64,000 nt of DNA from an uncultured Thermoplasmatales archaeon (lineage in GTDB: Archaea; Thermoplasmatota; E2; DHVEG-1), in assembly GCA_964347865.1 (NCBI GenBank), contig CAYGAC010000067.1, positions 6,592 through 70,591 of the forward strand, written 5' to 3'. Made by a program: the position numbers and the translations under genes. The notes under the pieces were generated by a model. It saw nothing but the letters and a program-made list of their open reading frames with translations. It ran no database searches and was not told the DNA's origin. Positions 41,939-57,089 of this stretch are shown here, one piece after another (the first letter of the stretch is position 1; the number at the start of each line of letters is the position of its first letter).

Positions 41939-43591
41939 TTATAACACCTCTTTTATTTTATTTAATAGTTCTATAGGATCAAAAGGACGTCCATTATATT
42001 TCAGAATTGTCTCATTTGTTTCAATACCTACTTTTTCCCTTAATAATGATGCAAGTTGACCTGTGCTATTCTGTTCTACTACAATCGCTTTCTTGCCCTT
42101 GTATCTTTCAAGTTCCCATATTGGAAAAGGTTTAAGATAAATTGGCTGAACTACTTTCATATCCAGTTTGCCATAATCTAGAGCTTCTCGGACACTCATT
42201 GTAGTTGATCCAAAGGTAAAAATCAATTTTTCTCCCTCACCAAAAGTATTAACAGTATGTGCTTTTTTCAAAAAATCAATAAGGCTTTTTTGTTTCTTTC
42301 GTCTTTTTTCATGCATCTTAGCAATTAATTCAGCCTTCTCTGTTGTTAAACCTAATTCAGTATGTTCATAACTATTCCACTTAATCAATTTCTTATTCGG
42401 TGGAAACAGCAATGGAGATATACCATTCTTAGTATCTAGATAACGTTTGAATTGGCCATCTATGTGTATAATAGGTTCAGACCATTTTGAATTTTCAGGA
42501 TTAATAGAAACACTCATGCTACTTTCACCTAAATGCTTCTCTGACAATAAGATTGCTGGTGTTTGAAAACGCCAAATCAGATTCAACAGCTCTGCAGTCA
42601 AATAGAATGCTTCCTCAATACTACCTGGGGAAGCTACAATACGAGGAAACTCACCCTGTCCCGGATTAAGAGAGAAAAATAATTCTCCTTGCTCAGTATA
42701 TGTTGGTACCCCAGTACTTGGTCCAGGACGTTGGCCGATATAGAACAGCACTGGTGCTTCAACCATTCCCGCAAGAGAAAATGCTTCCTGCATCAGGCAA
42801 AAACCACCACCACTTGTTCCAACCATGCTACGTGCACTAGTAAATGTTGCACCAATAGCCATATTTGCAACTGCAATCTCATTCTCAGGTTGAACTACTA
42901 CAATACTAAGTTTTTCACTATTGCCTGCTAAAAAATGTAATACAGGAGTAGAAGGTGTCATAGGATAACTAAAATAGATATCCAAACCAGCAGCAGCTGC
43001 ACCTAAACCTATAGCTTCACTACCAGACAATGATACAAGTTTTTTATTCCCTTGTTTTAAGGTAACTTTATTTTTTATTTTTTTGTCAGCAGCATCAAAA
43101 ATTACATGAGCATACTTAATGTTATCTTCGACATTGTATCCATATTCCTTTTTGATAATGTCATCCAATTTCTTTTTATCTGCGCCCACTATTGCAACAA
43201 GGATAGCAATACCAGCCACACCTTGGATGAGATCCGGATTCTCATATTTTTTCGCCTCAGAAGAAATTGGAATGCCGATGCCCGAACCCCTTGCTTTGTC
43301 AGAGTTGTAAACTATTATCCCATTTTTTGTGACATGGTCCTTGTGGATGTCATAGCTTCGTTGATCAAGAACAATAACGAGATCTGCTTTCATGTAATGA
43401 CTATAGATTTTTGATGTAGCAGTACTAACAACTGAGAAGTTATGGCCACCTCGTATCAGACTTGGATAGTCATTCATTTGAAAAACTTCACGTTTTAAAT
43501 CAGCAAAGAAATTTGCAGCAACAAGACCTGCTTTTTTTGTGCCTTGACCAGCTTTACCACCAATAATAAAGGTATAGATATTCTTCTTCAT
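41939..43591 (-). CDS. 2-oxoacid:ferredoxin oxidoreductase alpha subunit (fused gamma/alpha, two-subunit type)
   Basis: The N-terminal gamma-like motif GGKAGQG is followed by the alpha domain. 550 aa. The stop overlaps the beta start. Confidence 0.8.
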   Translation of the reverse strand: MKKNIYTFIIGGKAGQGTKKAGLVAANFFADLKREVFQMNDYPSLIRGGHNFSVVSTATSKIYSHYMKADLVIVLDQRSYDIHKDHVTKNGIIVYNSDKARGSGIGIPISSEAKKYENPDLIQGVAGIAILVAIVGADKKKLDDIIKKEYGYNVEDNIKYAHVIFDAADKKIKNKVTLKQGNKKLVSLSGSEAIGLGAAAAGLDIYFSYPMTPSTPVLHFLAGNSEKLSIVVVQPENEIAVANMAIGATFTSARSMVGTSGGGFCLMQEAFSLAGMVEAPVLFYIGQRPGPSTGVPTYTEQGELFFSLNPGQGEFPRIVASPGSIEEAFYLTAELLNLIWRFQTPAILLSEKHLGESSMSVSINPENSKWSEPIIHIDGQFKRYLDTKNGISPLLFPPNKKLIKWNSYEHTELGLTTEKAELIAKMHEKRRKKQKSLIDFLKKAHTVNTFGEGEKLIFTFGSTTMSVREALDYGKLDMKVVQPIYLKPFPIWELERYKGKKAIVVEQNSTGQLASLLREKVGIETNETILKYNGRPFDPIELLNKIKEVL

Positions 43592-44442: not shown

Positions 44443-45741
44443 TCAATGTACTGAACAAGAGATACATGGATCATAGGCCCGAATGAGCATCTCACATTTT
44501 AGAGTAATTTCATCTAAAGGTAAGGCCAATATAGTTTGAACAAAATCGTTAACATCTTTTTCAACATTGTAAGCATTTTGTGAAGTAGGTGGAACAATAT
44601 CTACACCTCTCACAATTCCATTATTATCAAGATCATAGCTATGATAAAGACTTCCACGAGGCGCCTCAGTAATAGCAGCACCAAAACCTGATTTACACAC
44701 TATATTTATTGATTCTTCCTTAAGAGATAATCGATTAATTATCTCAATTGACTCATCAATATTATGAACCAATTCTATTGCTCTTGCCAGATGCGACACA
44801 AATGGATTGAAATTGGGGAATTTAACACTGCTTCTTTTTGCTGCATCCTTTGCATCAGAAGAAAGCTGGCTGAAGTTAATATTAACTCTTGGAAGAGGCC
44901 CTACCATAAATGAATCTCGATTTTTCACATACGAAAGTAATGCCATTGAATAAGGCACCTGTTTCTCATGGATATAATCGCGATACTCCTCTTCATCAAT
45001 ATCTAATCCATCTGTTGATTTAAGCCGCCCGTGATTAATAGCATACTCCTTTGGATCTGAAATCGCTACATGTTCACACTTTCTCTCAAAATCTGGAACT
45101 TCTAATTCTGAGAAAAGATCAACAGTTTCAAAGGCGTCCTGTTTAAGTTCTAATAACCGTTTTCGTATAGTTTGTATATGATTTCTATTTGGCAATGCTG
45201 TAAAACCTCCAACGACTGCTGTAACAGGATGAACAGCTCTTCCACCGATAAGATCAGTAATATCATTACCTAATTTCTTAAGCTTCAGTCCTCTCTTCAC
45301 TAAATCCAAATGGTCCTTTGCCATAGCAATGCTGCTTTCATAACCCATAAGATCCGGGAGAGAAAGAAAATACATGCTAAGCACATTGCTTTGTATATGT
45401 GCACTTATTACAAGGAGTTTCCGTAAATCCTTGGTTTGCTGGCTAGGTTCTATTCCAAGTGCATTTTCAATAGCTTTAAGCGCCGTTATCTGGTGGGCTA
45501 CTGGGCAGATACCACAGATCCGAGAGGCAAGCTCCATTATTTCATCATACCTTCTGCCGATTAGGAAGAATTCAAAAAAGCGTGGTGGTTCATATATTCT
45601 AAACTGAAGGTCTTCTACTTTTCCATCCTTTGAAATGCTGATATTCAATGCTCCTCGCCCTTCCACACGAGCTATGTAGTCGACATCTATGGTTTTTCCA
45701 CTCTGATGTTTGTAATGAACTTCCACAGTTTTTTTTCTCAT
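44443..45741 (-). CDS. hydA: [NiFe]-hydrogenase large subunit (group 3b sulfhydrogenase alpha-like)
   Basis: N-terminal RICGICPVAH motif (L1) and C-terminal DPCISCSVH motif (L2). Last gene of a beta-gamma-delta-alpha operon. Confidence 0.85.
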   Translation of the reverse strand: MRKKTVEVHYKHQSGKTIDVDYIARVEGRGALNISISKDGKVEDLQFRIYEPPRFFEFFLIGRRYDEIMELASRICGICPVAHQITALKAIENALGIEPSQQTKDLRKLLVISAHIQSNVLSMYFLSLPDLMGYESSIAMAKDHLDLVKRGLKLKKLGNDITDLIGGRAVHPVTAVVGGFTALPNRNHIQTIRKRLLELKQDAFETVDLFSELEVPDFERKCEHVAISDPKEYAINHGRLKSTDGLDIDEEEYRDYIHEKQVPYSMALLSYVKNRDSFMVGPLPRVNINFSQLSSDAKDAAKRSSVKFPNFNPFVSHLARAIELVHNIDESIEIINRLSLKEESINIVCKSGFGAAITEAPRGSLYHSYDLDNNGIVRGVDIVPPTSQNAYNVEKDVNDFVQTILALPLDEITLKCEMLIRAYDPCISCSVH

Positions 45742-46520
45742 CAGTGTTCCGCCTCCTTCAGAAACTCTGGTGACATACCAGCATATTTTCTAAACTTCCG
45801 TTTAATATCCCTATCAGTCAGCCCCATATCTCTAAAAATACCAGCAAGAGCTGAGGCGTTCGGGTTGCTCATTGGCCCGAAACATCCCTCACAATCTCTA
45901 TTAAGAGAAGGGCATATCGCATTACATCCAGCGCTAGTAACTGGACCCATGCAAGCTCTTTTTTTACTGGTAATAAGGCAAATATTATCTCTGAACTTAC
46001 ATTCAACACAGACAGGGTGATGTCTTAGACGCGGCTGTATCTTTAGAAGAGCTGATTTCAAAAGCTCAACAATCATATCTCTATGGGGAGGGCACCCCTT
46101 TAAAATCTTGTCAACCTTAACATATTCTCCAATGCCTAAAACCTTGGTGGAATGAATTGTCGAAGTATCATGATAGACAAGGTTTTCTGCTTCCATCTGT
46201 GGTATCCAATTTCTAATAGATGGAATACAGCCACCAATGGCACAATCCCCAAAGGCTACAAGAAATTTTGTCTTCTTCCTGATTTGTTTAATCTCTTCAA
46301 TTTCCTCAGGAGTTGAAATTCCACCTTCAACAAAGCTGATATCCCATTCTTTCTTATCATTTTCTCGTTTAACCATAACCCAATAATTTATATCAAATAA
46401 TTCAAGCAAATCAAGGAAAATATCTTCCAAATGAAGGAACTCTAGCTGACAACCCGCGCACCCGGTAAATTTAAAAACTGCAATCCATGGTTTTTCATTC
46501 ATAATATATATCACTCTCAT
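45741..46520 (-). CDS. hydD: [NiFe]-hydrogenase small subunit (sulfhydrogenase delta-like)
   Basis: The GCAGC, GDCAIGGCIP and GCPP motifs are present, with additional Cys clusters. Confidence 0.8.
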   Translation of the reverse strand: MRVIYIMNEKPWIAVFKFTGCAGCQLEFLHLEDIFLDLLELFDINYWVMVKRENDKKEWDISFVEGGISTPEEIEEIKQIRKKTKFLVAFGDCAIGGCIPSIRNWIPQMEAENLVYHDTSTIHSTKVLGIGEYVKVDKILKGCPPHRDMIVELLKSALLKIQPRLRHHPVCVECKFRDNICLITSKKRACMGPVTSAGCNAICPSLNRDCEGCFGPMSNPNASALAGIFRDMGLTDRDIKRKFRKYAGMSPEFLKEAEH

Positions 46521-47350
46521 TATAAAGGATGGATAAAAGGTTTGATGTCATTGTAGCTGAAGACAGGGCCATCTTTACAAACAAATTTTAAACCAACTTG
46601 ACAGTGACCACACTTGCCTATTCCACATTTCATCCTCCTTTCAAGCGATAAATAAATTTGATTATCATTAAATCCTATTGTTTCCAAGCATTTAGCAGCA
46701 TATCGCATCATGATTTCAGGTCCACATACAAATGCTACAGAGTTTCGTGTTTTCGTAGTCATCCTCGGGAAGCAAGATGTAACAAGACCCAGCTGACATT
46801 CAAATTGTGATTCAACAGGAATAGTATCAACAGTAAGCTCAAGTCTACTACTTTTTATACCCCTCCATCTTTCAAATTCATCAGTGAAAATCATATCATC
46901 TGGTGTTCTAGCTCCATAAAGAATCTCTAAATGACCGAAATCTCTCCTATTAGCTCTAATATGATTGATAACACCTCTAAGGGGAGCAATTCCCATACCA
47001 CCTGCAACAAGTAAAACATCCTTACCTTTTATCTTAACAAGTGGCCATCCATTTCCATAGGGGCCACGCATTCCAATATAACTACCATCTTTTAATTGGA
47101 GAATTGCGCTAGTGACACTTCCAACGTTTCTAATAGTAGTGATAATAGAACCATTGTTACCAATGTCTGATAAAGAAATTGCAGATTCTCCTGCACCAAA
47201 TAAGCTAAGCATCATAAATTGGCCAGGTTTGGGTGAAAAATCTTTTTGCAGTTTTGAATCAGAAAACTCAAGGGTATAGGTATTCGTATTAGAGGTCTCA
47301 GGTTTAATTTTTTTTATTACTCCTATGTTTGGATAATACTCATTTATCAC
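46520..47350 (-). CDS. hydG: sulfhydrogenase gamma-like subunit (FAD/NAD(P)-binding oxidoreductase with C-terminal 2Fe-2S; PyrK-like)
   Basis: A ferredoxin-reductase-type fold is followed by the C-terminal CGIGKCGHCQVG motif. Confidence 0.7.
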   Translation of the reverse strand: MINEYYPNIGVIKKIKPETSNTNTYTLEFSDSKLQKDFSPKPGQFMMLSLFGAGESAISLSDIGNNGSIITTIRNVGSVTSAILQLKDGSYIGMRGPYGNGWPLVKIKGKDVLLVAGGMGIAPLRGVINHIRANRRDFGHLEILYGARTPDDMIFTDEFERWRGIKSSRLELTVDTIPVESQFECQLGLVTSCFPRMTTKTRNSVAFVCGPEIMMRYAAKCLETIGFNDNQIYLSLERRMKCGIGKCGHCQVGLKFVCKDGPVFSYNDIKPFIHPL

Positions 47351-47354
47351 ATTT

Positions 47355-48395
47355 TTAACCTCCTCTAATAGCTTTGGCTACTTCTGTAATATCGATCTTA
47401 GAGGGACATACACGGATGCATCGACCACACCCCACACAACTAGAATTTATACCCCCAGCTGCAGCGCCAAATTTGCACATCATCCAATGGCGTATCCTAT
47501 CTTTTCTATCTCTCCTAAAATTCCCATCAAGAGATACTTCACCATATTCAAGCAACTGACAGGAATCCCATTCCCGGTAACGAGCTCCACTTTTTAATGA
47601 CAAATCTGTTGTATCATTGACATCATAACAATAACAAGTAGGGCAGACGAAGGTACATGAGCCACATGATAAACATGGGAATGAGCCTGCAACTCCACCA
47701 CATTCTCCTAAATCCAGCCAAACTCCATGATTAGTGTTTTCCCTTGCAATTCTGGATAGCCATGAGATGTTCATAAATTTCTTCATTTTTTTCTCCATCA
47801 ATTTTAATCGTTTTTCCTTTTCTTTTATATCTTCTTTTTGTGCAGTTCTTAATTTTAATCCTTCAACTAAACTACTACCAGTTTTTGTCCCTATTTCCAA
47901 GAGATATTTTGTGCCTATATCAGTCAATAAAAGGTCATATCCTTCGTTTAGATAGGGACCTGTGTCCATTGAGCTGCAAAAAGAATGCCCACTTGGTTCA
48001 ATACAGTTAAGAGCAACTATAAAAGTATTTTTTCTCCGATTCTGATAATATGGATCGTTAAAATCCCCTGAAAAAAATTTATCTAATCTGTGGATAGCAT
48101 TCACATCACAAGGATGAATTCCAAAAAGGAGTATTTTTTCATCAAGTTTAATCTCATTAGTGGTGAATTTTCCATTTTTAACATCAAAAGAAAATAACGT
48201 TTCCTTCGGCGGATGGAAGAATTTCTTTGGTGGAAGAACAGTAGATATGTAATCAAGATGAAGGTCTTTTATAGATGTTATCTCATCGAAGGTTGAATCC
48301 GGACCAGGTTTTGTTGGGCCATATACTTTATATTTCTTTTGAAATCGTTCTAGGAGCTTATTCAGATTACTTTTATCTATTGTTAAAGCCTTCAT
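47355..48395 (-). CDS. hydB: sulfhydrogenase beta-like subunit (iron-sulfur protein)
   Basis: Several Cys clusters (CLSCGSCTFVCPTCYC; CVGCGRCIRVCP) match the HydB/AsrA-like family. Confidence 0.7.
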   Translation of the reverse strand: MKALTIDKSNLNKLLERFQKKYKVYGPTKPGPDSTFDEITSIKDLHLDYISTVLPPKKFFHPPKETLFSFDVKNGKFTTNEIKLDEKILLFGIHPCDVNAIHRLDKFFSGDFNDPYYQNRRKNTFIVALNCIEPSGHSFCSSMDTGPYLNEGYDLLLTDIGTKYLLEIGTKTGSSLVEGLKLRTAQKEDIKEKEKRLKLMEKKMKKFMNISWLSRIARENTNHGVWLDLGECGGVAGSFPCLSCGSCTFVCPTCYCYDVNDTTDLSLKSGARYREWDSCQLLEYGEVSLDGNFRRDRKDRIRHWMMCKFGAAAGGINSSCVGCGRCIRVCPSKIDITEVAKAIRGG

Positions 48396-48583: not shown

Positions 48584-50710
48584 ATGAATAATGGACATAA
48601 GAAACAGGATTCCCAAAATATGGATATGCATAAAAATCATGAAAAAATGGATGATATGAACCATTCTAAAATGAATCATGGGAAACATATGAAAATGGAG
48701 CATGAACATAAGCCCAAAGGAGAACATGAGCAGCATAAACATCCTGGACATCATGATCATACAGCTCATCATAAAATGATGATGGAAGATTTCAAACGAA
48801 GATTCATTATATCTTTAATTGTCACTATTCCAATACTGATATTATCTCCCTTGATTCAGGAATTTCTAGGTTTTGATTTTACTTTCACTGGGAGAAATTA
48901 TTTTTTATTTTTGCTTTCGTCTTTTGTCTTCTTCTACGGCGGTTGGCCTTTTCTAAAAGGTTTAGGATCTGAACTGAAAAGCAAGACACCAGGTATGATG
49001 ACACTAATTGCAGTTGCAATATCAGTTGCATATTTTTACAGTGCTGCAGTGGTTTTTGGCCTTGAGGGAAAGTTTTTCTTCTGGGAATTAGCCACACTAA
49101 TTGACATTATGCTGTTGGGCCACTGGATTGAGATGAGATCTGTTCTAGGAGCTTCTAATGCTCTTGAGAAATTAGCCCAGCTTATGCCTGATGAGGCCCA
49201 TCTTATCAAGGGAAATGACGTCGTAGATGTTAAACTAAGTGAAATATCAAAAGGGGATCATGTTTTAGTAAAGCCTGGTGAAAAAATCCCATCTGATGGG
49301 ATAATTATGAAGGGGAATAGTTATGTTAATGAGGCAATGCTTACCGGGGAATCAAAGCCTGTTGAAAAGAAAAAGGGAGATAAAGTAATTGGTGGAGCTA
49401 TCAATGGGGATGGTTCACTTGAGATTATGGTAGAGGGTACCGGTGAGGATTCCTATTTGTCAAAAGTCATAAACCTTGTAAGGGAAGCACAGGAAGCAAA
49501 ATCAAAAACCCAACGCTTAGCTGATAAGGCAGCTTTTTGGCTTACAATTATTGCATTAACTGCAGGTTTCACAACTCTTTTTACATGGACTTATTTTGGT
49601 CAGGATTTTGCTTTTTCTGTTGAACGGATGGCTACTGTTATGGTGATAACATGTCCGCATGCTCTTGGCCTGGCCATACCGTTGGTTGTCGCGGTTTCTA
49701 CAGCATTATCAGCAAGAAATGGTTTGCTTATCCGTGATAGGACAGCATTTGAAAATTCAAGGAAGATTACAACTATTGTTTTTGATAAAACAGGTACGCT
49801 TACTGAAGGAAATTTTGGAGTTAGTTCTGTTCAAACCGTTGATAATAAATACAATGAGAAGAAAATAATTCAACTCGCTGCAGCCGTAGAGAAGAATTCT
49901 GAGCATCCGATAGCTACAGGAATTCTTGAAAAAGCAAAAAACCTTGATGTTAAGGCTCCTGAAGTTTCAGATTTTAAAGCTATCAAGGGCAAAGGTGTTG
50001 AGGGAATTATTGAAGGGAAATCTGTTAAGGTGGTCAGTCCTGGTTATTTGAAAGAAAAAAATATTCAGATCCCTAACAATCAGAAGCTGAGTAGTTCAGA
50101 TACAGTGGTGTTTTTATTAGTCAATAATAGATTAGTTGGTATTATTAGTCTTTCTGATAAGATAAGAGAGGAATCTTTCAGTGCTATTGAGCGTTTAAAA
50201 AAAGCAGGGATAAAATGCTGGATGTTGACAGGAGATAATAAGAGAATTGCAAAAAAAGTTTCTGATGAGTTAAAACTTGATGGTTATTTCGCAGAGGTAT
50301 TACCTCATGAGAAACAGGAGAAGGTTAAGGAATTGCAGTCTAAAGATGAATTTGTTGCTATGACAGGTGATGGTGTAAATGATGCTCCTGCTTTGGCTCA
50401 AGCTGATGTTGGTATTGCTATTGGTTCTGGTACTGATGTTGCTGCTGAAACTGCAGATATAATTCTTGTGAATAGCAATCCTGCTGATGTCACATCTTTG
50501 ATTCTTTTCGGTAGAGCTACTTATAAGAAAATGGCTCAGAATCTTGTGTGGGCAACTGGTTATAATGTTGTTGCTATTCCCTTAGCTGCTGGTGTAATGT
50601 ACAGTCAGGGTATTCTTCTTTCTCCAGCGATGGGAGCTGTTTTAATGTCTTTGAGCACTGTAATTGTTGCAATAAATGCTAGATTGTTGAGAGTTGAGAA
50701 GGAGATTTAA
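48584..50710 (+). CDS. copB: P1B-type heavy-metal (copper) transporting ATPase, CopB-like (CPH motif, His-rich N-terminus)
   Basis: His-rich N-terminal tail (…[17 protein letters not shown]…). TM motif [10 protein letters not shown], phosphorylation site DKTGTLT and hinge GDGVNDAP. Confidence 0.85.
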
Positions 50711-50712
50711 TT

Positions 50713-51102
50713 ATGATTAGTTATAGGTTTACAAAAGAAGTAGATATGCCTTTTGAAGAAACAATTAAAATAGTAACTGAAAAGCTGAAAAAGGAAGGCT
50801 TTGGAATTCTAACAAGAATTGATGTTAAGGATAAATTCAAAGAGAAGCTTGATATCGATTTTAAGAACTATGTTATACTTGGTGCTTGTAATCCTCCTAG
50901 TGCCCATAAAGCTATTCTTACTGAGGAAAACATAGGCTTGATGCTTCCTTGTAATGTTATTGTTTATGAAAGTGGAGATAAGACAACGATATCTATTATT
51001 AAACCTACTGTTGCAATGAGTATGATTGATAATGAAGAGTTAAAGCAGATAGCTGAAGATATTGAAAAAAAACTTAAACATGTATTTGATGTTATAGAAT
51101 AG
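50713..51102 (+). CDS. DUF302 domain protein
   Basis: 129 aa. The GACNP motif and overall pattern match DUF302 proteins. The start lies 3 nt after the copB stop. Confidence 0.6.
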   Translation: MISYRFTKEVDMPFEETIKIVTEKLKKEGFGILTRIDVKDKFKEKLDIDFKNYVILGACNPPSAHKAILTEENIGLMLPCNVIVYESGDKTTISIIKPTVAMSMIDNEELKQIAEDIEKKLKHVFDVIE

Positions 51103-51114
51103 GAGGTAGCTGTT

Positions 51115-51528
51115 ATGGATAAAAAATTATCAGCAGTTTTTTTTGGAGGTTTTCCATTTATTGTTTTAAATGGTGGAGGTTTTACTCATATGATGGATGA
51201 CTGGGGTCATATGATGGATTGGTGGGGTATCCCATTTATGGGTTTCTGGTGGATTGGAGTGTGGATTATTCAGTTTATTATTGCTTTTCTTGTCTATAAG
51301 GATGCTGAGAAGAGAGATAATAATGGTTTGCTTTGGTTTGTACTTGTGGTTCTTCCTTGGATTGGTATTATCTTTTTGATAATTTATTTGATAATTCGGG
51401 AGGAAAAAACTGAGGCTGAGGAGACTATATCTGATGCCCTGAAGATCCTTGATGATCGGTATGCAAAAGGTGAGATGACAAGAAAGGAATATCTCCAAGC
51501 TAAAGAAGATATTGAGAAGAAGAAATAA
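51115..51528 (+). CDS. membrane protein with C-terminal SHOCT domain
   Basis: TM helices with Trp/His-rich loops. The C-terminal sequence LDDRYAKGEMTRKEYLQAKEDI matches the SHOCT consensus. Confidence 0.6.
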   Translation: MDKKLSAVFFGGFPFIVLNGGGFTHMMDDWGHMMDWWGIPFMGFWWIGVWIIQFIIAFLVYKDAEKRDNNGLLWFVLVVLPWIGIIFLIIYLIIREEKTEAEETISDALKILDDRYAKGEMTRKEYLQAKEDIEKKK

Positions 51529-51577
51529 ATTGAAAAAAAGAAAGATTTATATCAAAATGAATATGGGTAAAAATTAA

Positions 51578-52642
51578 ATGGCTATAGATCCAATTTGTGA
51601 AATGGAATGTGAAGAAAATAATTATTCTTATGAGTACGCAGGTAAGAAATATCATTTTTGTTCACAAGGTTGCTTGGATGCTTTTAAGCAATCTCCAGAT
51701 GAATATTTCAAGAAAAAGGAGCATCAGTTAATAATTATAGGTGGTGGTCCTGCTGGGCTTACTGCAGCGGTTTATTCCTCTGTATTTAAAATTCCAACAT
51801 TTTTAATATCTATGGATATTGGCGGTCAGGCGATAGACAGCATTAATATTAAAAATTATATGGGATTTGACTTCATATCTGGAAAAGATCTTACTAATAA
51901 ATTCAAGGAACAATTTTTACATGAACATTATCTAGACCATAAGATTGATGAAGTACTAAGTATAAATAAAAAGGGTGAATTATTTGAAGTAATTACCAAA
52001 AGTGGTGGTAAATATTCTGCTCAATCAATCATTATTGCTAGCGGCATGAAGCGGAGGAAATTGAATGTCCTTGGTGAGGATAGACTACAAAGGAAAGGAA
52101 TATTTTACAGCTCAGCACATGACATCACGTTTTGTAAAGGTTCAAATGTTGTAGTTGTAGGTGGTGGCAACTCAGGAGTGCAGACTGCCAATAATTTGAA
52201 AAATATTGGTTGCCATGTAACACTAGTCTCAAAAGGAAAACTAATAGCAGATAAACATGATATTGAAGAGCTTCAAGGATGTAAAGACGTTGAGATATTA
52301 GAGGGTTATAATGTTAGTGAAATATCTGGTGAGGATAAAGTAGAAGGAGTTTCTCTTATATCCCAAGATGGATCTTCTAAAATAGAAAAAAGGATTGTTG
52401 GTATATTTATCCAGATAGGGTTTTTGCCAAATACAGAGTTATGCGAGGATAAATTGAAATTGAATAAAAGGGGTGAGATTATAATCAAGCCAGATTGTTC
52501 TACTAATGTTAAAGGTATATTTGCCTGTGGTGATGTCACAGATGCATTTGGTAAAAGAATTATTGTAGCTGCTGGTGAAGGCGCAAAAGCTACTTTGAGT
52601 GCCAAACAGTATTTAATTGAAAGTGGGAGAGAATGTAGATGA
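51578..52642 (+). CDS. YHS/TRASH-domain fused to thioredoxin-reductase-like flavoprotein lacking the CxxC redox disulfide (FNR/YumC-like)
   Basis: N-terminal CEMECEENNYSYEYAGKKYHFCSQGCLDAF (YHS-like). FAD site IIGGGPAGLTAAVY. NAD(P) site VVVGGGNSG. C-terminal ACGD. TrxR has CATC where this protein has SSAH. Confidence 0.65.
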   Translation: MAIDPICEMECEENNYSYEYAGKKYHFCSQGCLDAFKQSPDEYFKKKEHQLIIIGGGPAGLTAAVYSSVFKIPTFLISMDIGGQAIDSINIKNYMGFDFISGKDLTNKFKEQFLHEHYLDHKIDEVLSINKKGELFEVITKSGGKYSAQSIIIASGMKRRKLNVLGEDRLQRKGIFYSSAHDITFCKGSNVVVVGGGNSGVQTANNLKNIGCHVTLVSKGKLIADKHDIEELQGCKDVEILEGYNVSEISGEDKVEGVSLISQDGSSKIEKRIVGIFIQIGFLPNTELCEDKLKLNKRGEIIIKPDCSTNVKGIFACGDVTDAFGKRIIVAAGEGAKATLSAKQYLIESGRECR

Positions 52643-52844
52643 ATGATGTAAAAGAGAAAGAATGTCCAATATGTAGTAAAAAGATAGGTCTGATGCTGCT
52701 ATTCATGAGTTCTGCAAACTTTGCGGTATGGGAATTCCTGAGCCTACAGACGCTCCTAAGATTCAGACAAAAGATGGGAAATATGATTATTTCTGTTGTG
52801 ATAGATGTTGTTCAATTTATAAGAAAAATATTGATAAATCTTGA
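52639..52844 (+). pseudogene. small Cys-rich metal-binding (zinc-ribbon plus YHS/TRASH-like) protein, apparent -1 frameshift near 52690
   Basis: Frame 1 reads MNDVKEKECPICSKKIG. The reading then continues in another frame as SDAAIHEFCKLCGMGIPEPTDAPKIQTKDGKYDYFCCDRCCSIYKKNIDKS*. The downstream frame is blocked upstream by TAA. The track ORF 52639-52857 reads through in the wrong frame. Confidence 0.4.
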
Positions 52845-52853
52845 GGTTAAATT

Positions 52854-54335
52854 ATGAAGCAGAGGTTTTTAATTGTTATTTTATTAGGTTTATTTTTAAT
52901 CGCTGGTTCTATACCAGCTGTTGCCCATGAGGATGAAGACAACACCGATTTACATGAGATAGATGGAGAAATTATTGAAGATGAATACCCAAATCATAGC
53001 ATCTTTGGTAATGGAGTATATGAATTATATTGGCGCATAGAAAATGATATCATATATATGGCCATGGTGGGTAAGACCACAGGTTGGGTTGCAATAGGAT
53101 TTGGTCCTATAACTTTACATAAGGGTGCTGATGTTGTAAGTGGATGGGTGGATGAAAATAAAACTGTCAGTGTTATTGATTGTTATTTCCCAGATATGTA
53201 CCCTCCACATCCACATGATACAGAGCAGAATGGTACTTATGACATTCTTTCCTATAATGGAACTGAACATGATAATAAAACAATTATAGAATTCTCTCGA
53301 AAGCTATCAACAGGTGACGATTTCGATACTGATATTCCTCTCAATAATAGCTTAGAGATATTCTGGTCTACAGGACCTACAGATAACTGGAGACAAAAAC
53401 ACGAGGAAGCAGGCTACACTACTGTAAATTTTACAGCAGGAGAACATTCTGAAAAAGTAGTAGATTGGATTGGACATGCAATTGTCAGCATCATTGGTCT
53501 TATTTTGGCAATTTCTATTCTAATTTCAGGTGCAAAATTAACAGGTAGAATCAAGGGTAAGAAAGGGGCAAATACTTATAAAATTCACAAGATAGTAAGT
53601 GTCTTATTTAGTGTTTTTATGATTGGAACATTTTTCTATGGATTATGGGTGACGTCAGGACATGGTTCGCCTATACTTTCATCTGTTCATGGTTGGCTGG
53701 GATTAATTATCTTTATTTTTGCAGTAATACAACTCATTCCTTGTTTGTTTGTTAAAAATCGAACTAGAATAAAATTTCCCCATATGATAATTGGTTATCC
53801 TTTAGCATTTTTGGTTGTTATTCAGGTTGCATGGGGTACTCATATAGCTGTATTGGGTGAAGTAAAATCTCTTGTACTTATTCATTCAATAACTGGAGGA
53901 ATTGCTGCTTTGGCCTTATTTTGGATAATTATAGAGATGAGACATCTTACTGAAAAAGGAATTAAGAGGTCTAAGAATGCGAGTTATATTTCAGCATTTT
54001 TCAATATTGTAGGATGCTGGATAATAGGTGGTTATAGTTATTTAACAGAATATGGGTCAAATGTTAAACCTATTATAAAATCAGGTGCTCAACCTTGGGC
54101 ACATCAGATTATAACCGAAACAAAAGAACATATCTTCATTTTCCTTCCAATACTATCAATCCTTCTTGCAATAACACTGTTCACCCTCGGTAAAGATGAT
54201 ACTTTATTGAAGGATCTTAAATCAAAACGTGCAGTAATTCTCCTTACAGCCTTTGTATTATTCTTTATTTTATTGATGTTTATAATGGGTGCAATTATTT
54301 CTTATGTAGGAAATCTTAGTGCAGGAGGTATTTAG
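52854..54335 (+). CDS. signal-peptide DOMON-like extracytoplasmic domain fused to multi-His cytochrome b561-like polytopic membrane domain
   Basis: Signal peptide, then a His/acidic region. The DOMON-like core is YELYWRIENDIIYMAMVGKTTGWVAIGFGP…ADVVSGWVDE. At least 8 TM helices follow, with His in consecutive helices (GHAIV, IHKIV, VHGWLG, PHMIIG…GTHIAV, IHSITGG). Confidence 0.6.
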   Translation: MKQRFLIVILLGLFLIAGSIPAVAHEDEDNTDLHEIDGEIIEDEYPNHSIFGNGVYELYWRIENDIIYMAMVGKTTGWVAIGFGPITLHKGADVVSGWVDENKTVSVIDCYFPDMYPPHPHDTEQNGTYDILSYNGTEHDNKTIIEFSRKLSTGDDFDTDIPLNNSLEIFWSTGPTDNWRQKHEEAGYTTVNFTAGEHSEKVVDWIGHAIVSIIGLILAISILISGAKLTGRIKGKKGANTYKIHKIVSVLFSVFMIGTFFYGLWVTSGHGSPILSSVHGWLGLIIFIFAVIQLIPCLFVKNRTRIKFPHMIIGYPLAFLVVIQVAWGTHIAVLGEVKSLVLIHSITGGIAALALFWIIIEMRHLTEKGIKRSKNASYISAFFNIVGCWIIGGYSYLTEYGSNVKPIIKSGAQPWAHQIITETKEHIFIFLPILSILLAITLFTLGKDDTLLKDLKSKRAVILLTAFVLFFILLMFIMGAIISYVGNLSAGGI

Positions 54336-54337
54336 AT

Positions 54338-54679
54338 ATGAAGCATAACCAAACCGAAAGAATTGCGGCATTCTATCTTGCAGCTATAATAACTGTTGTT
54401 GTCATCGGTTCCATGATAATTATACATGAAGAATCTACAGAGTTCAAGGATTTCCTAATCAACTTGACGGGTCACCATTGGATTACTAAAAGCATTTTTG
54501 CTATTGTTATATTCCTGATTCTATCGATAGTATTCTATGTAATGTTCAGATCAGAAAAGCTGAGGAAAGCATTGAAGGCTGATAATGTATGGTTATGGTC
54601 TGTTTTCACAGTTATTATTACAGTTATTTTTATACTTGGTAGCTTATTGATTTATATCCTCCATTTCTATGGTGGCTAA
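54338..54679 (+). CDS. small membrane protein (113 aa, 3 TM)
   Basis: Hydrophobic ORF starting 3 nt after the upstream stop. Confidence 0.45.
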   Translation: MKHNQTERIAAFYLAAIITVVVIGSMIIIHEESTEFKDFLINLTGHHWITKSIFAIVIFLILSIVFYVMFRSEKLRKALKADNVWLWSVFTVIITVIFILGSLLIYILHFYGG

Positions 54680-54754: not shown

Positions 54755-55030
54755 TTATTTCTTTTGTTTTTCTTTGAAAAACTTATGCATCTCTGATAAT
54801 ATTTTTTTCATTGTGTCGATTTGTTCATGGGCGATGGTAGTTCCTTCATGAAGTTCTTGGATAAAAGTGTGCATATCAGAAATCGCTTCTTTCATTGTCG
54901 TAATTTCTTCATGAGCTAGTATTGTTCTCTTGCGTAGTTCCCGAAAATGATAGATTAAGAATATTAGTACAATTGTTTCTATAACAATGATTGTTGCTTC
55001 TATAATTAAAATGAAATTTTCGTGAATCAT
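54755..55030 (-). CDS. N-terminally anchored protein with tandem His/Met/Glu repeat (candidate metal-binding)
   Basis: One TM helix, then two repeats: TILAHEEITTMKEAISDMHTFIQEL and TIAHEQIDTMKKILSEMHKFFKE. Confidence 0.45.
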   Translation of the reverse strand: MIHENFILIIEATIIVIETIVLIFLIYHFRELRKRTILAHEEITTMKEAISDMHTFIQELHEGTTIAHEQIDTMKKILSEMHKFFKEKQKK

Positions 55031-55513: not shown

Positions 55514-55792
55514 ATGGTTAAAAACATGGTAAAATTCTTCAAGGCATTAGGAGACGAAACACGTTTTAAAATAGTCAGGTACCTTTTGAACCATGAATAT
55601 TGTGCATGTGATTTTACATCTATGACAAAGAAGGATCAAACTACTGTATCGAGGCATCTTAAGGTTTTGGTGGATGCAGGTGTTTTGAAATACAAAAAGA
55701 ACGGCAGGAATATAATCTACAGCATCAGGGATAAAAATGTAAAAAACGCACTATTGAAATTCGGAATAAAGTGGATAAAATCGTGCTGTTAA
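55514..55792 (+). CDS. ArsR/SmtB-family metalloregulator
   Basis: The HTH segment is ALGDETRFKIVRYLL…EYCACDFTSMTKKDQTTVSRHLKVL, with the CxCD-type metal site. 92 aa with C-terminal CC. Confidence 0.75.
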   Translation: MVKNMVKFFKALGDETRFKIVRYLLNHEYCACDFTSMTKKDQTTVSRHLKVLVDAGVLKYKKNGRNIIYSIRDKNVKNALLKFGIKWIKSCC

Positions 55793-56379
55793 AAGGTGAA
55801 ATGCAAAAAAGTGTTATACTAATATGTTTGATTGTTGTGATTTTAATTAGTGGTTGTATATCTGAAGAAAGGGGAATTGATATGGTAAACGAAATGAATA
55901 AATTAGTAATAGATTATCTATACTTAGACCTTTCATTGTGTAAAAGATGTCAAGCAACTGATATAGTGCTTGATGAGGCATTAAGTGAACTAAGAGAAGA
56001 GCTAAAGGATGTAAGGCAAATAACAGTCAATAAGATCAAGATATTAAGCGACAAGGAAGCGGAAAAATATGAATTTAAGAGTTCTCCAACCATAAGGATA
56101 AATGGTAAAGATATTGAAGAGATTATTACAGGTAAATTAGAGATAAAAGAAAATTATTGCAGCTCTTGTTCAGAAGTTTGTTGTGGGGAACCGAATTGCC
56201 GAACTTTTGAATACAATGGAACAATTAGTGATTCTATTCCCAAAGAAATGATAAAAGAAGCAATAATGATAGTTTTGGAAATAAATTCAAATGAAGAGCC
56301 TAAAGAGGGCGGGGCAGGTGGTTCACCGTGTTGCCCTCCAAGTAATCAAACATCAGGTTGTTGTGGTTCTGATACCTAA
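55771..56379 (+). CDS. lipoprotein with thioredoxin-like ArsD/DUF2703-type domain and C-terminal PCCPP…GCCG motifs
   Basis: Signal peptide with lipobox (LISGC). Central CKRCQ and SPTIRINGKDI segments resemble ArsD. CSSC and CCGEPNC follow, with C-terminal GGSPCCPPSNQTSGCCGS. The gene overlaps the arsR-like gene by 22 nt. Confidence 0.5.
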   Translation: MDKIVLLKGEMQKSVILICLIVVILISGCISEERGIDMVNEMNKLVIDYLYLDLSLCKRCQATDIVLDEALSELREELKDVRQITVNKIKILSDKEAEKYEFKSSPTIRINGKDIEEIITGKLEIKENYCSSCSEVCCGEPNCRTFEYNGTISDSIPKEMIKEAIMIVLEINSNEEPKEGGAGGSPCCPPSNQTSGCCGSDT

Positions 56380-56570: not shown

Positions 56571-57089
56571 TTGGTAAAGAAAAAAGGAAAAAAAGTTGCC
56601 GTAAAAACTAAAAAAGAGAAGAAACCTACCACTAAGATGACGGATGCTCCAACGGTATGGACCCCTTTTGACTTATTCGAAGATATTGACAGATACTTTT
56701 TTGAAGACCCATGGTTTAGACGCTCTGGATGGATGAGACCATGGACTGGAGCTTTAATTCCAGATGTGAAACATACAGCTGTGGATATGATTGATACCGG
56801 GAAAGAATATAAGGTGACTGCTGAAATGCCGGGAGTTGCGAAAAAGGATCTTGAAGTTTCAATAACACCTAATAATATAAGCATCTGTGGTGAAACCAAG
56901 ACTGAGACTAAAGAAGAAGAAAGGGGATACATTAGACGTGAAAGAAGTTATTCTACACTTTGTAGAAATATGAAATTTCCTGAAGAAGTAAATCCTGATA
57001 AAGCAGTAGCAACACTTAATGATGGTATTCTAGAAGTAAAGATTCCTAAAATTATACCAAGAAAAAGCAGAATTATACCAGTAAAATAA
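56571..57089 (+). CDS. Hsp20/alpha-crystallin small heat-shock protein (Lys-rich N-terminus; TTG start, or ATG at 56637)
   Basis: The alpha-crystallin domain is …DMIDTGKEYKVTAEMPGVAKKDLEVSI…GILEVKIPK. GGAGGT lies 8 nt upstream of TTG 56571. Confidence 0.7.
   Translation: MVKKKGKKVAVKTKKEKKPTTKMTDAPTVWTPFDLFEDIDRYFFEDPWFRRSGWMRPWTGALIPDVKHTAVDMIDTGKEYKVTAEMPGVAKKDLEVSITPNNISICGETKTETKEEERGYIRRERSYSTLCRNMKFPEEVNPDKAVATLNDGILEVKIPKIIPRKSRIIPVK

What the first reader, a model, noticed from the sequence alone, without database searches (positions are those of the whole stretch)
52854..54335. Archaeal DOMON-like ectodomain fused to a cytochrome b561/ferric-reductase-like multi-His membrane core
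The sequence shows a cleavable-looking signal peptide and a His/acidic linker. A DOMON-type beta-sandwich signature follows (…MAMVGKTTGWVAIGFGP…, …ADVVSGWVDE…). After it come at least 8 TM helices with conserved-looking His in successive helices (GHAIV, IHKIV, VHGWLG, PHMIIG/GTHIAV, IHSITGG). This fusion is characteristic of eukaryotic SDR2 and FRRS1 transmembrane reductases. A prokaryotic homolog embedded in a copB locus would be an informative evolutionary and functional outlier.
Basis: partly seen in the sequence, partly recalled or inferred. Interest (0 to 1): 0.65.

Follow-up and report, generated by a model that had tools for sequence, protein, structure and literature searches.

The report
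Archaeal copper-operon DOMON cytochrome b fusion
This archaeal gene encodes a membrane "electron wire" related to plant and animal iron/copper reductases. It is fused to a previously unnamed four-helix module and sits inside a copper-export operon, so it probably changes the redox state of copper outside the cell.

Summary
The ORF at 52854-54335 (+) is real and encodes 493 aa. It has a signal peptide, a His/acidic linker, a DOMON domain (Pfam 84 bits against a cut-off of 32.7) and eight TM helices.

TM1-4 form a four-helix cytochrome b core of the DUF4079/b561 superfamily. One conserved His sits in each helix: H208/H279 on the outer side and H245/H310 on the inner side. This is the layout of eukaryotic CYBDOM proteins. 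The "ferric-reductase-like" label got no support from profile searches.

TM5-8 are a separate, unnamed module, called X here. X also occurs as a stand-alone protein in Patescibacteria. A homologue of the window's 113-aa downstream gene (Y, motif LTGHHW) always follows it.

The canonical DOMON haem-ligand Met is His89 in this clade.

Prokaryotic DOMON-cytochrome fusions are common, with 1,859 cluster representatives, including Asgard archaea and Caldisericota. The gene is therefore not an outlier. What is unusual:
- The three-module fusion was seen only in this lineage, and was confirmed in an independent MAG.
- Linkage to CopB and a Met/His-rich SHOCT membrane protein recurs in 7 of 12 archaeal loci.

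Best reading: a trans-membrane haem relay serving extracellular copper redox chemistry. Direction and cofactors are inferred, not shown.

The parts
48584..50710 (+). CopB-type (P1B) copper ATPase, first gene of the operon. It has a His/Met-rich N-terminus and a CPH motif in 'VITCPHALG'.
   Evidence: Pfam E1-E2_ATPase 1.3e-54 and Hydrolase 2.7e-31. The motifs are read from the translation. Orthologues lie next to cytochrome homologues in L005, L006, L009, L021 and L022.
50713..51102 (+). DUF302 protein
   Evidence: Pfam DUF302 5.2e-23. It recurs in L004 and L022.
51115..51528 (+). Met/His-rich membrane protein (HMMDDWGHMMDWWG) with a C-terminal SHOCT domain. It is a recurrent neighbour of the cytochrome gene.
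   Evidence: Pfam SHOCT 1e-6. Homologues at 48-77% identity lie directly upstream of the cytochrome gene in L005 and L009 and two genes upstream in L004; it is also directly upstream in L021 and L022.
51578..52642 (+). YHS-domain plus AhpF/TrxR-like flavoprotein without the CxxC redox disulfide. Found in the window only. Possible cytoplasmic electron donor (speculative).
   Evidence: Pfam YHS 1.4e-13 and Pyr_redox_2 2.3e-37. TIGR01292 and TIGR03140 score below their cut-offs. 'SSAHD' stands where TrxR has CATCD (sequence; TrxR motif from my own knowledge).
52639..52857 (+). Frameshifted small Cys-rich TRASH/YHS-like gene
   Evidence: Only the first ~17 aa are in this frame. The other 52 aa, 65% identical to the 70-aa protein of L004, are in another frame (tblastn E=3e-26).
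52854..52925 (+). Signal peptide (residues 1-24), with predicted cleavage after A-V-A
   Evidence: Hydropathy peak at residues 5-23. An A-x-A/S followed by His pattern is conserved in 13/15 clade members. Cleavage itself is inferred.
52926..52958 (+). His/acidic linker HEDEDNTDLHE (residues 25-35). His25 is the predicted first residue of the mature protein.
   Evidence: Sequence. H25 is conserved in 13/15 and H34 in 11 of the clade.
52959..53441 (+). DOMON beta-sandwich (residues 36-196). Candidate haem ligands are H89 (at the canonical Met position) and H183. A clade-specific M115-x3-H119-x-H121 loop is present.
   Evidence: Pfam DOMON 84 bits. Foldseek hits: 4zel DOMON E=2.7e-5, CDH cytochrome domain probability 1.0. 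Column census. Ligand positions taken from PMC10691727 and PMC10784544.
53451..53858 (+). Four-helix di-haem cytochrome b core (residues 200-335). H208 and H279 form the outer pair; H245 and H310 form the inner pair. A conserved basic cytoplasmic loop G-A-x-L-T-G-R-I-K is present.
   Evidence: DUF4079 E=1.2e-4, below the cut-off. 44/47 relatives hit DUF4079 and 29/47 hit Cytochrom_B561. His conservation. Helices. Topology follows from K/R counts in the loops (sequence).
53859..54332 (+). Module X (residues 336-493). An unnamed four-helix membrane module with near-invariant H344, E361, W389, Y396, W415, H417, E422, K424 and H426.
   Evidence: Profile search finds fused and stand-alone forms, none with a Pfam domain for this region. 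No Pfam family covers it. Model pLDDT 93.5. Conservation.
54338..54679 (+). Module Y. A 113-aa membrane protein with the motif FK..L..LTGHHW[VI]TK; the invariable downstream partner of module X.
   Evidence: 38-70% identical partners in L004, L006, L007 and L008. Homologous to the Patescibacteria partners (hhalign probability 99.1%, E=8.9e-19). X is followed by Y in 12/12 distinct contexts.

Best explanation
**What it is.** The gene encodes a three-module membrane redox protein of an anaerobic Thermoplasmatota archaeon.

**Proposed path of electrons.**
1. After secretion and signal-peptide cleavage, a DOMON domain sits outside the cell, on top of a four-helix cytochrome b core.
2. The core carries two b-haems. 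The inner haem is held by H245/H310, next to a conserved basic cytoplasmic loop. The outer haem is held by H208/H279.
3. By homology with b561 and CYBDOM proteins, electrons taken from a cytoplasmic donor pass from the inner to the outer haem.
4. They then reach a third redox site outside the membrane. That site is a bis-His (H89/H183) haem in the DOMON, the conserved His/Glu cluster of module X with its partner Y, or both.
5. There an extracellular acceptor is reduced.

**Why copper.** The gene is translationally packed into a copB operon. The cytochrome core travels with CopB and a Met/His-rich SHOCT membrane protein whether DOMON, X-Y or both are attached. The acceptor is therefore most likely copper, with Cu(II) reduced to Cu(I) as an accessory step of copper efflux or detoxification.

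**Shown:** domain identities, conserved residues, topology logic and gene linkage.

**Inferred:** haem binding, direction of electron flow, copper as substrate and the identity of the donor.
For: - **Domains.** DOMON scores 84 bits. The core falls in the DUF4079/b561 superfamily.
- **Haem ligands.** Four His, one per helix, are conserved in 83-99% of sequences. They are placed exactly as His1/His3 (outer) and His2/His4 (inner) of b561. As in CYBDOMs, the core is TM1-4 directly after the DOMON (PMC10691727).
- **Topology.** Loops predicted to be cytoplasmic carry 18 K/R; loops predicted to be outside carry 3 (sequence).
- **DOMON ligand columns.** H183 is conserved 184/206. Column 89 is Met 200/253 and His here.
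- **Precedent.** The plant CYBDOM protein HYP1 is a three-haem relay that reduces both Fe(III) and Cu(II) (PMC10784544).
- **Operon packing.** Gaps or overlaps between the + strand genes from 48584 to 54679 are -4 to 49 bp.
- **Copper linkage.** CopB and/or the HMM-SHOCT protein lie next to the cytochrome gene in the window, L004, L005, L006, L009, L021 and L022. These loci cover all three architectures.
- **Other copper genes.** Csp in L006 and a cupredoxin in L005.
- **Independent confirmation.** The same fusion sits in the same context in an independent MAG (L021), and a 502-aa member of the same 90% cluster occurs on other contigs.
Against: - No cofactor or activity can be tested here.
- The window protein scores below Pfam's cut-off for DUF4079 (22.8 against 31.4 bits) and does not hit Cytochrom_B561 itself.
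- The canonical DOMON Met ligand is absent, so the DOMON haem is uncertain.
- Five of the 12 distinct archaeal loci (L001, L007, L008, L023, L024) show no copper gene within the flanks held. A distant Asgard relative is not CopB-linked.
- A benefit of reducing Cu(II) outside the cell during copper stress is not obvious.
- Module X-Y also occurs in Patescibacteria. As I recall, these bacteria are not expected to make haem, and no copper genes lie nearby in those loci. The role of X-Y may therefore be neither haem- nor copper-specific.
- Whether this organism can make haem is unknown.
Confidence: 0.5

Rival explanations
1. Same haem relay, opposite direction: an oxygen-independent cuprous oxidase. 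Cu(I) pumped out by CopB is oxidised at the DOMON or X-Y site. The electrons are returned through the b-haems to a membrane or cytoplasmic acceptor. This would be an anaerobe's functional substitute for CueO.
For: The gene sits in an efflux operon, not an uptake operon. The flanking NiFe hydrogenase and POR genes indicate an anaerobe, so an O2-dependent multicopper oxidase would be of little use. A Met/His-rich Cu(I)-type motif is found in the conserved SHOCT neighbour.
Against: All characterised b561 and CYBDOM proteins move electrons outward (PMC10784544; PMC10691727). A bis-His DOMON haem would be expected to have a lower potential than Met/His (general haem chemistry, from my own knowledge), which disfavours oxidation of Cu(I). 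No quinone-site features were identified.
Confidence: 0.15
2. In this clade the ectodomain is a copper-binding module rather than a haem carrier. The Met-to-His change, the M115-x3-H119-x-H121 loop and a predicted N-terminal His (histidine-brace-like) would bind copper. The DOMON would then act as a metallochaperone or sensor, or as the substrate site reduced directly by the outer membrane haem.
For: H89 replaces the Met ligand in the whole clade. M115 and H121 are clade-specific. His follows the A-x-A/S cleavage motif in 13/15 members. These loops have lower pLDDT, 65-71. The DBH DOMON, the best structural match, binds no haem (PMC10691727).
Against: The second haem ligand, H183, is retained in 24/27. 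His at column 89 also occurs in unrelated multi-DOMON proteins. The cleavage site is only predicted.
Confidence: 0.15
3. A general extracellular electron-transfer or ferric-reductase protein whose position next to copB reflects a shared metal- or stress-response island rather than a shared function.
For: Five archaeal loci lack copper genes within the flanks. HSP20, ferritin and ArsR genes also recur nearby. CYBDOM proteins reduce Fe(III) as well as Cu(II).
Against: Adjacency to CopB and HMM-SHOCT is immediate and same-strand, with overlapping or near-overlapping reading frames. It persists across three architectures and two gene orders. My own rough estimate: with one or two P1B ATPase genes per genome, chance adjacency within three genes is below 1% per locus.
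Confidence: 0.1
4. An electron supplier for extracytoplasmic protein maintenance, working like MsrQ or DsbD. The haem relay would feed reducing power to X-Y or to partner proteins, keeping Met/Cys/His copper ligands of surface proteins reduced during copper stress.
For: Stand-alone X-Y pairs in Patescibacteria lie near DsbA and VKOR genes. A Met-rich partner protein is conserved.
Against: No MsrP-, Msr- or thioredoxin-like extracytoplasmic partner is encoded in the archaeal loci. X has only one conserved Cys, C388 at 37/40. The DsbA proximity was seen in two of three CPR contexts only, and the genes after X-Y are not conserved.
Confidence: 0.1

Closest known systems
Eukaryotic CYBDOM proteins (plant HYP1/CRR, animal SDR2/FRRS1, insect CG8399)
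   Same: An extracellular DOMON lies directly upstream of a four-helix di-haem core occupying TM1-4. His1/His3 are outer and His2/His4 inner. The core loops run cytoplasmic, outside, cytoplasmic. The N- and C-termini face outward. Documented activity includes Cu(II) reduction.
   Different: The core is closer to DUF4079 than to Pfam Cytochrom_B561. The DOMON Met ligand is His. There are no two CYBDOM-type extra helices; four helices of the unrelated module X follow instead. Ascorbate is, to my knowledge, not a known archaeal metabolite. The gene lies in a prokaryotic copper-efflux operon.
Pfam DUF4079 (PF13301), uncharacterised four-helix membrane proteins. As I recall, Pfam places it in the same di-haem cytochrome clan as b561.
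   Same: It is the best Pfam match of the membrane core, covering residues 205-331 against profile positions 2-137 of 141. 44/47 relatives match.
   Different: The window protein scores 22.8 bits, below the 31.4 cut-off. DUF4079 itself has no assigned function and, as a Pfam model, carries no DOMON or X module.
Cytochrome b561 / Dcytb (single-domain, six-TM ascorbate-dependent reductases)
   Same: Fold match to 4o6y (probability 0.95, TM-score normalised to target 0.48). The same four-His logic applies. 29/47 relatives hit PF03188.
   Different: There are no flanking TM1 and TM6. The orientation has the N-terminus outside. A profile of the core finds no solved b561 chain by sequence.
Haem-copper oxidase subunits III and IV (CyoC/CyoD, CtaE, COX3)
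   Same: Module X superposes on subunit III four-helix bundles (probability up to 1.0, TM-score normalised to query 0.55-0.66). The gene pair of a multi-TM protein plus a ~100-110-aa three-TM protein mirrors cyoC-cyoD. JGI names a Y homologue 'oxidase subunit 4'.
   Different: Foldseek E-values are not significant (0.17 or higher). hhalign probabilities are 0.2% (X against CyoC) and 0.6% (Y against CyoD). No COX3 or COX4 Pfam signal appears. The conserved His/Glu hairpin of X was not matched by any family in these searches.
CueO-type multicopper oxidases and FRE/STEAP metalloreductases (functional analogues only)
   Same: Both are extracytoplasmic copper redox steps coupled to copper homeostasis.
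   Different: No cupredoxin or ferric-reductase-domain match appears in the Pfam result for this protein. The resemblance is functional and hypothetical.

Membership tests
CYBDOM (DOMON + cytochrome b561 fusion) | Extracellular DOMON domain N-terminal to the cytochrome core | tested here: met
   Pfam DOMON 84.1 bits against cut-off 32.7, residues 53-174. A signal-peptide-like N-terminus precedes it. Foldseek hits to DOMON and CDH cytochrome domains.
CYBDOM (DOMON + cytochrome b561 fusion) | Four consecutive helices (TM1-4) with four conserved His: His1/His3 outer and His2/His4 inner | tested here: met
   H208, H245, H279 and H310 each lie near the expected end of helices 202-229, 241-269, 278-299 and 304-334. 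Definition taken from PMC10691727. His-His distances could not be measured.
CYBDOM (DOMON + cytochrome b561 fusion) | Met + His axial ligands of the DOMON haem | tested here: not met
   The His position is conserved (H183, 184/206). The Met position is His89 here; it is Met in 200/253 DOMON instances. Ligand positions.
CYBDOM (DOMON + cytochrome b561 fusion) | Membrane domain recognised by Pfam Cytochrom_B561 (PF03188) above threshold | tested here: not met
   The window protein shows no PF03188 match at E<=1. 29/47 relatives match at E<=0.01, best 8.1e-8.
CYBDOM (DOMON + cytochrome b561 fusion) | Three bound b-haems and ascorbate-driven trans-membrane electron transfer | not testable with these tools
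   Needs protein biochemistry.
DUF4079 (PF13301) | Score at or above Pfam's gathering cut-off | tested here: not met
   22.8 bits against 31.4, although nearly the whole profile is covered. 44/47 relatives match at E<=0.01, best 3.2e-10. This indicates a superfamily relative, not a curated member.
Ferric reductase domain superfamily (FRE/NOX/STEAP/YedZ) | Match to a ferric-reductase transmembrane-domain profile | tested here: not met
   No such family appears among the Pfam matches at E<=1, and NCBIfam gives none.
Haem-copper oxidase subunit III (CyoC/COX3), for module X | Detectable sequence or profile homology | tested here: not met
   hhalign probability 0.2% against E. coli CyoC. The similarity is at fold level only, with non-significant E-values.
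Haem-copper oxidase subunit IV (CyoD), for module Y | Detectable sequence or profile homology | tested here: not met
   hhalign probability 0.6% against E. coli CyoD. TIGR02847 scores 14 bits against a cut-off of 81.
P1B-3 (CopB-type) copper ATPase, for the neighbour at 48584-50710 | P-type ATPase domains, a CPH motif in the transmembrane metal site and a His-rich N-terminus | tested here: met
   Pfam E1-E2_ATPase and Hydrolase. 'CPH' and the His-rich N-terminus are read from the translation. The subgroup criteria are from my own knowledge.

The most novel reading that the evidence does not exclude
Modules X and Y form a previously unrecognised extracytoplasmic metal/redox module, shared by Archaea and Patescibacteria. 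A group of anaerobic archaea has wired it, alone or together with a His-ligated DOMON, onto a b561-type haem relay. The result would be an oxygen-independent copper oxidoreductase that works with the CopB pump. This would be a new component of copper homeostasis and could help settle whether CopB systems handle Cu(I) or Cu(II).
Probability: 0.25. Interest if true: 0.75.

Novelty: new variant of a known kind. Interest (0 to 1): 0.55.

Why it matters
- **Origin of CYBDOM proteins.** CYBDOM-type trans-membrane reductases are treated as eukaryotic iron/copper reductases. This locus shows a minimal prokaryotic version, DOMON plus a four-helix core. It is abundant in uncultured archaea and bacteria, including Asgard lineages, which bears on the origin of the eukaryotic family.
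- **Copper homeostasis.** In one archaeal clade the gene has been recruited into CopB operons. That points to a redox step in anaerobic copper resistance which no described system covers, since CueO-type oxidases need O2.
- **A new gene pair.** The work exposes an unnamed, conserved two-gene membrane module (X-Y) with an invariant His/Glu hairpin. It is present from Thermoplasmatota to Patescibacteria, and its function is open.

Tried and rejected
- **Sequence searches against PDB chains.** The whole protein, module X and the four-helix core gave nothing meaningful. The DOMON profile reached only the haem-free DBH DOMON.
- **Hidden C-terminal module in short homologues.** The 790-bp gap after P0002's gene holds no X-like ORF. 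Type A proteins therefore truly lack X.
- **X-Y as oxidase subunits III/IV.** This was prompted by fold hits and a JGI name. Profile comparison and the absence of a Pfam signal reject it.
- **COX15/CtaA.** Weak hits in 9/26 members (best E=0.038) were not reproduced in the deeper set (2/59). Treated as noise.
- **A conserved third gene after X-Y in Patescibacteria.** None found.
- **Genome scan.** The scan with the full alignment failed because it had no conserved stretch, so it was redone with the core only.
- **Encoding contig of P0001.** Not on record. The source organism was therefore inferred from L021 and from relatives.
- **Literature.** Searches for prokaryotic DOMON-b561 proteins, DUF4079 or a DOMON-copper-resistance link found nothing relevant.
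Full report
**1. Observation**

The ORF at 52854..54335 (+) exists as described and encodes 493 aa.
- The N-terminus is a hydrophobic signal-like segment ending A-V-A, followed by HEDEDNTDLHEIDG.
- Pfam assigns residues 53-174 to DOMON (E=1.2e-23, 84.1 bits, cut-off 32.7). The only other match is a sub-threshold one, of residues 205-331 to DUF4079 (22.8 bits, cut-off 31.4).
- NCBIfam has no model for the protein.
- An AlphaFold2 model built on 47 homologues (pLDDT 84.5, pTM 0.70) shows a beta-sandwich at 47-192 followed by eight long helices.

**2. Three modules, not one eight-helix core**

Most homologues cover only about 60-67% of the query. Alignment shows three architectures:
- Type A: DOMON + 4 TM, about 345 aa.
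- Type B: 4 TM + a C-terminal ~160-aa extension, no DOMON, about 325 aa.
- Type C: all three parts, as in the window's protein.

| Architecture among 195 retrieved relatives | Count |
|---|---|
| DOMON + 4TM | 85 |
| DOMON only | 64 |
| 4TM + extension | 36 |
| All three modules | 1 (the window's own sequence) |
| Fragments (4TM only 7, extension only 2) | 9 |

The triple fusion is nevertheless real.
- A 502-aa member of the same 90% cluster occurs on three other contigs.
- An independent Thermoplasmatales MAG (L021) carries a 509-aa ORF with the same three modules in the same gene context.
- The short type A genes do not hide a frameshifted extension.

**3. The cytochrome core (residues ~200-335)**

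- **Conserved His.** H208 is conserved in 115/138 sequences, H245 in 119/128, H279 in 123/129 and H310 in 95/96. There is one per helix.
- **Topology.** With the DOMON outside, loops predicted to be cytoplasmic carry 18 K/R and loops predicted to be outside carry 3 (sequence). H208 and H279 then lie near the outer face, and H245 and H310 near the inner face.
- **Match to b561 and CYBDOM.** This is the His1/His3 outer, His2/His4 inner rule of cytochrome b561. In eukaryotic CYBDOM proteins the core likewise occupies TM1-4 directly after the DOMON (PMC10691727).
- **Family-level support.** 44/47 relatives hit DUF4079 (best E=3.2e-10) and 29/47 hit Cytochrom_B561 (best E=8.1e-8). Foldseek matches b561 structure 4o6y with probability 0.95.
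- **Limits.** No ferric-reductase-type family is matched. A narrow profile of the core does not reach solved b561 chains by sequence.

I therefore place the core in the DUF4079/b561 superfamily, not in either curated family.

**4. The DOMON**

- Structural matches are the DBH DOMON (E=2.7e-5), the haem-binding CDH cytochrome domain (probability 1.0) and NxrC.
- In haem-binding DOMONs the iron is held by a Met in a conserved loop and by a C-terminal His (PMC10691727). In plant HYP1 these are M90 and H174 (PMC10784544).
- In an alignment of 313 domain instances the His column is conserved (H183, 184/206). The Met column is Met in 200/253 and His in 27, including the whole window clade (H89).
- The clade also has a specific M115-x3-H119-x-H121 loop. 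A His follows the predicted A-x-A/S cleavage site in 13/15 members.
- The DOMON may thus carry a bis-His haem, or it may have become a copper-binding domain.

**5. Module X (residues 336-493) and its partner Y (54338-54679)**

- A profile of the extension retrieves fused forms and ~150-160-aa stand-alone proteins, among them Patescibacteria (Harrisonbacteria, Yanofskybacteria) and Methanothrix. None has a Pfam domain for this region.
- The family shares the signature W.GGYYY...YG..VKPIIKAG..PWAH.I.MEAKEHIFLFLP.
- H344, E361, W389, Y396, W415, H417, E422, K424 and H426 are near-invariant.
- Modelled alone, X is a confident four-helix bundle (pLDDT 93.5). Helices 2 and 3 are long (44 and 34 residues). 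The conserved hairpin between them lies on the side I infer to be outside.
- In every distinct context examined (12/12), X is followed immediately by a ~100-114-aa membrane protein homologous to the window's 113-aa ORF. The evidence is hhalign probability 99.1% (E=8.9e-19) and the shared motif FK..L..LTGHHW[VI]TK.
- Fold matches to oxidase subunit III (TM-score normalised to query 0.55-0.66, E 0.17 or higher) and a JGI label 'oxidase subunit 4' suggested a CyoC/CyoD analogy. Profile comparisons reject homology, at 0.2% and 0.6%.
- X-Y is an unnamed two-gene module of unknown function.

**6. Genomic context**

The + strand genes from 48584 to 54679 are tightly packed. In order they are:
1. CopB-type ATPase, with a CPH motif and a His-rich N-terminus.
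2. DUF302 protein.
3. A Met/His-rich SHOCT membrane protein.
4. A YHS-AhpF/TrxR-like flavoprotein lacking CxxC.
5. A frameshifted TRASH-like gene.
6. The cytochrome gene.
7. Y.

An ArsR regulator and a Cys-rich DUF2703 protein follow.

| Locus | Type | CopB | HMM-SHOCT protein |
|---|---|---|---|
| Window | C | yes | yes |
| L021 | C | yes | yes |
| L009 | A | yes | yes |
| L022 | A | yes | yes |
| L005 | B | yes | yes |
| L006 | B | yes | no |
| L004 | B | contig ends at DUF302 | yes |

- No copper genes lie within the flanks of L001, L007, L008, L023 or L024.
- A Hodarchaeales relative is paired with a soluble DOMON protein instead.
- The common denominator of the copper linkage is therefore the cytochrome core. 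DOMON and X-Y look like exchangeable outer-face accessories.
- The neighbouring NiFe hydrogenase and POR genes point to an anaerobe.

**7. Mechanism**

- Most likely (confidence about 0.5) the protein is a trans-membrane haem relay delivering electrons to an extracytoplasmic site where copper is reduced, as an accessory to CopB-mediated detoxification.
- This rests on homology with CYBDOM proteins that reduce Cu(II) and on the gene linkage.
- Haem binding, direction, donor and substrate are all inferred.
- Rivals: the reverse reaction (an anaerobic Cu(I) oxidase), a copper-binding rather than haem-binding DOMON, a copper-unrelated extracellular reductase, and an MsrQ/DsbD-like electron supply for protein maintenance.

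**8. Comparison and novelty**

- The closest known kind is the CYBDOM family. The domain order, core position and His logic are met.
- The Met ligand, the Pfam b561 threshold and the six-helix count are not met.
- Prokaryotic DOMON-cytochrome fusions are common (1,859 representatives at E<=1e-3). NCBI already names them in Caldisericota, and they occur in Asgard archaea.
- The tight family around the window gene was found in only four species-representative genomes, all archaeal.
- New here: the triple fusion, the unnamed X-Y module, the His-for-Met DOMON clade and the recurrent CopB/SHOCT linkage.
- I found no paper describing any of these.
- Verdict: a new variant of a known kind, of moderate interest.

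Noticed in passing
window 52639-52857: The 72-aa ORF just upstream of the target is a frameshifted copy of a ~70-aa Cys-rich TRASH/YHS-like metal-binding gene. 'CPICSKKI' is in one frame. The remaining 52 codons, 65% identical to the L004 homologue, are in another frame and end about 10 bp before the target's ATG.
   Followed up: yes
window 51578-52642: A YHS metal-binding domain is fused to an AhpF/TrxR-like FAD/NAD(P)H oxidoreductase that has SSAHD where TrxR has its CATCD redox disulfide. It is present only in the window's version of the operon. It could be a cytoplasmic copper-responsive flavoprotein or an electron donor.
   Followed up: partly
window 51115-51528; L004 426-836; L005 7612-8004; L009 3940-4383; L021 749-1180; L022 4967-5383: A small membrane protein with an N-terminal HMMDDWGHMMDWWG Met/His motif and a C-terminal SHOCT domain lies upstream of the cytochrome gene in six loci and directly after CopB in four of them. 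It looks like an uncharacterised copper-handling partner.
   Followed up: partly
L010 5001-5785; L013 5001-5773; L016 5001-5785: Stand-alone X-Y gene pairs occur in Patescibacteria. In two of three contexts they lie within a few kb of DsbA (plus VKOR and TspO in L010). The genes that follow X-Y are not conserved.
   Followed up: partly
L025 5492-7020: A Hodarchaeales (Asgard) contig carries a soluble 163-aa DOMON protein directly upstream of a 339-aa DOMON-b561 fusion. Heimdallarchaeota have a similar 346-aa protein. This may bear on the origin of eukaryotic CYBDOM and AIR12-like proteins.
   Followed up: no
window 55514-56379: An ArsR-family regulator overlaps the start of a DUF2703 protein that has a CxxC motif and a Cys-rich C-terminal tail (CCGEPNC...CCPPSNQTSGCCGSD). 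This is probably a further metal-responsive unit next to the operon.
   Followed up: no
window 54755-55030 (-) and 56571-57089 (+); L021 3112-3396 (-) and 3620-4141 (-): A ~91-aa ORF with one hydrophobic segment and repeated 'AHE[EQ]I.TMK' motifs, convergent on gene Y, is conserved between the window and L021. An HSP20-like protein (judged by eye, not scanned) is nearby in both, and HSP20 genes also flank the homologue in L005.
   Followed up: no
window 44443-48395 (-): A four-gene cluster is transcribed divergently from copB: a 4Fe-4S subunit, an NAD-binding/FeS subunit, and the small and large NiFe-hydrogenase subunits. It resembles a soluble group-3 hydrogenase, and POR lies further upstream (41939-43591).
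   Followed up: partly
L001 7633-7968; L004 844-1185: A ~111-aa lipoprotein-like protein (46% identical between the two loci) lies upstream of the cytochrome gene in a type A and a type B locus. It is absent from the window.
   Followed up: no
P0044, P0045, P0046 (homologues): More distant relatives place one or more Ig-like repeat domains in front of a Met-type DOMON and a PF03188-positive b561 core. Two of them also have a His directly after an A-x-A-like motif (…A|HAPSS…).
   Followed up: no
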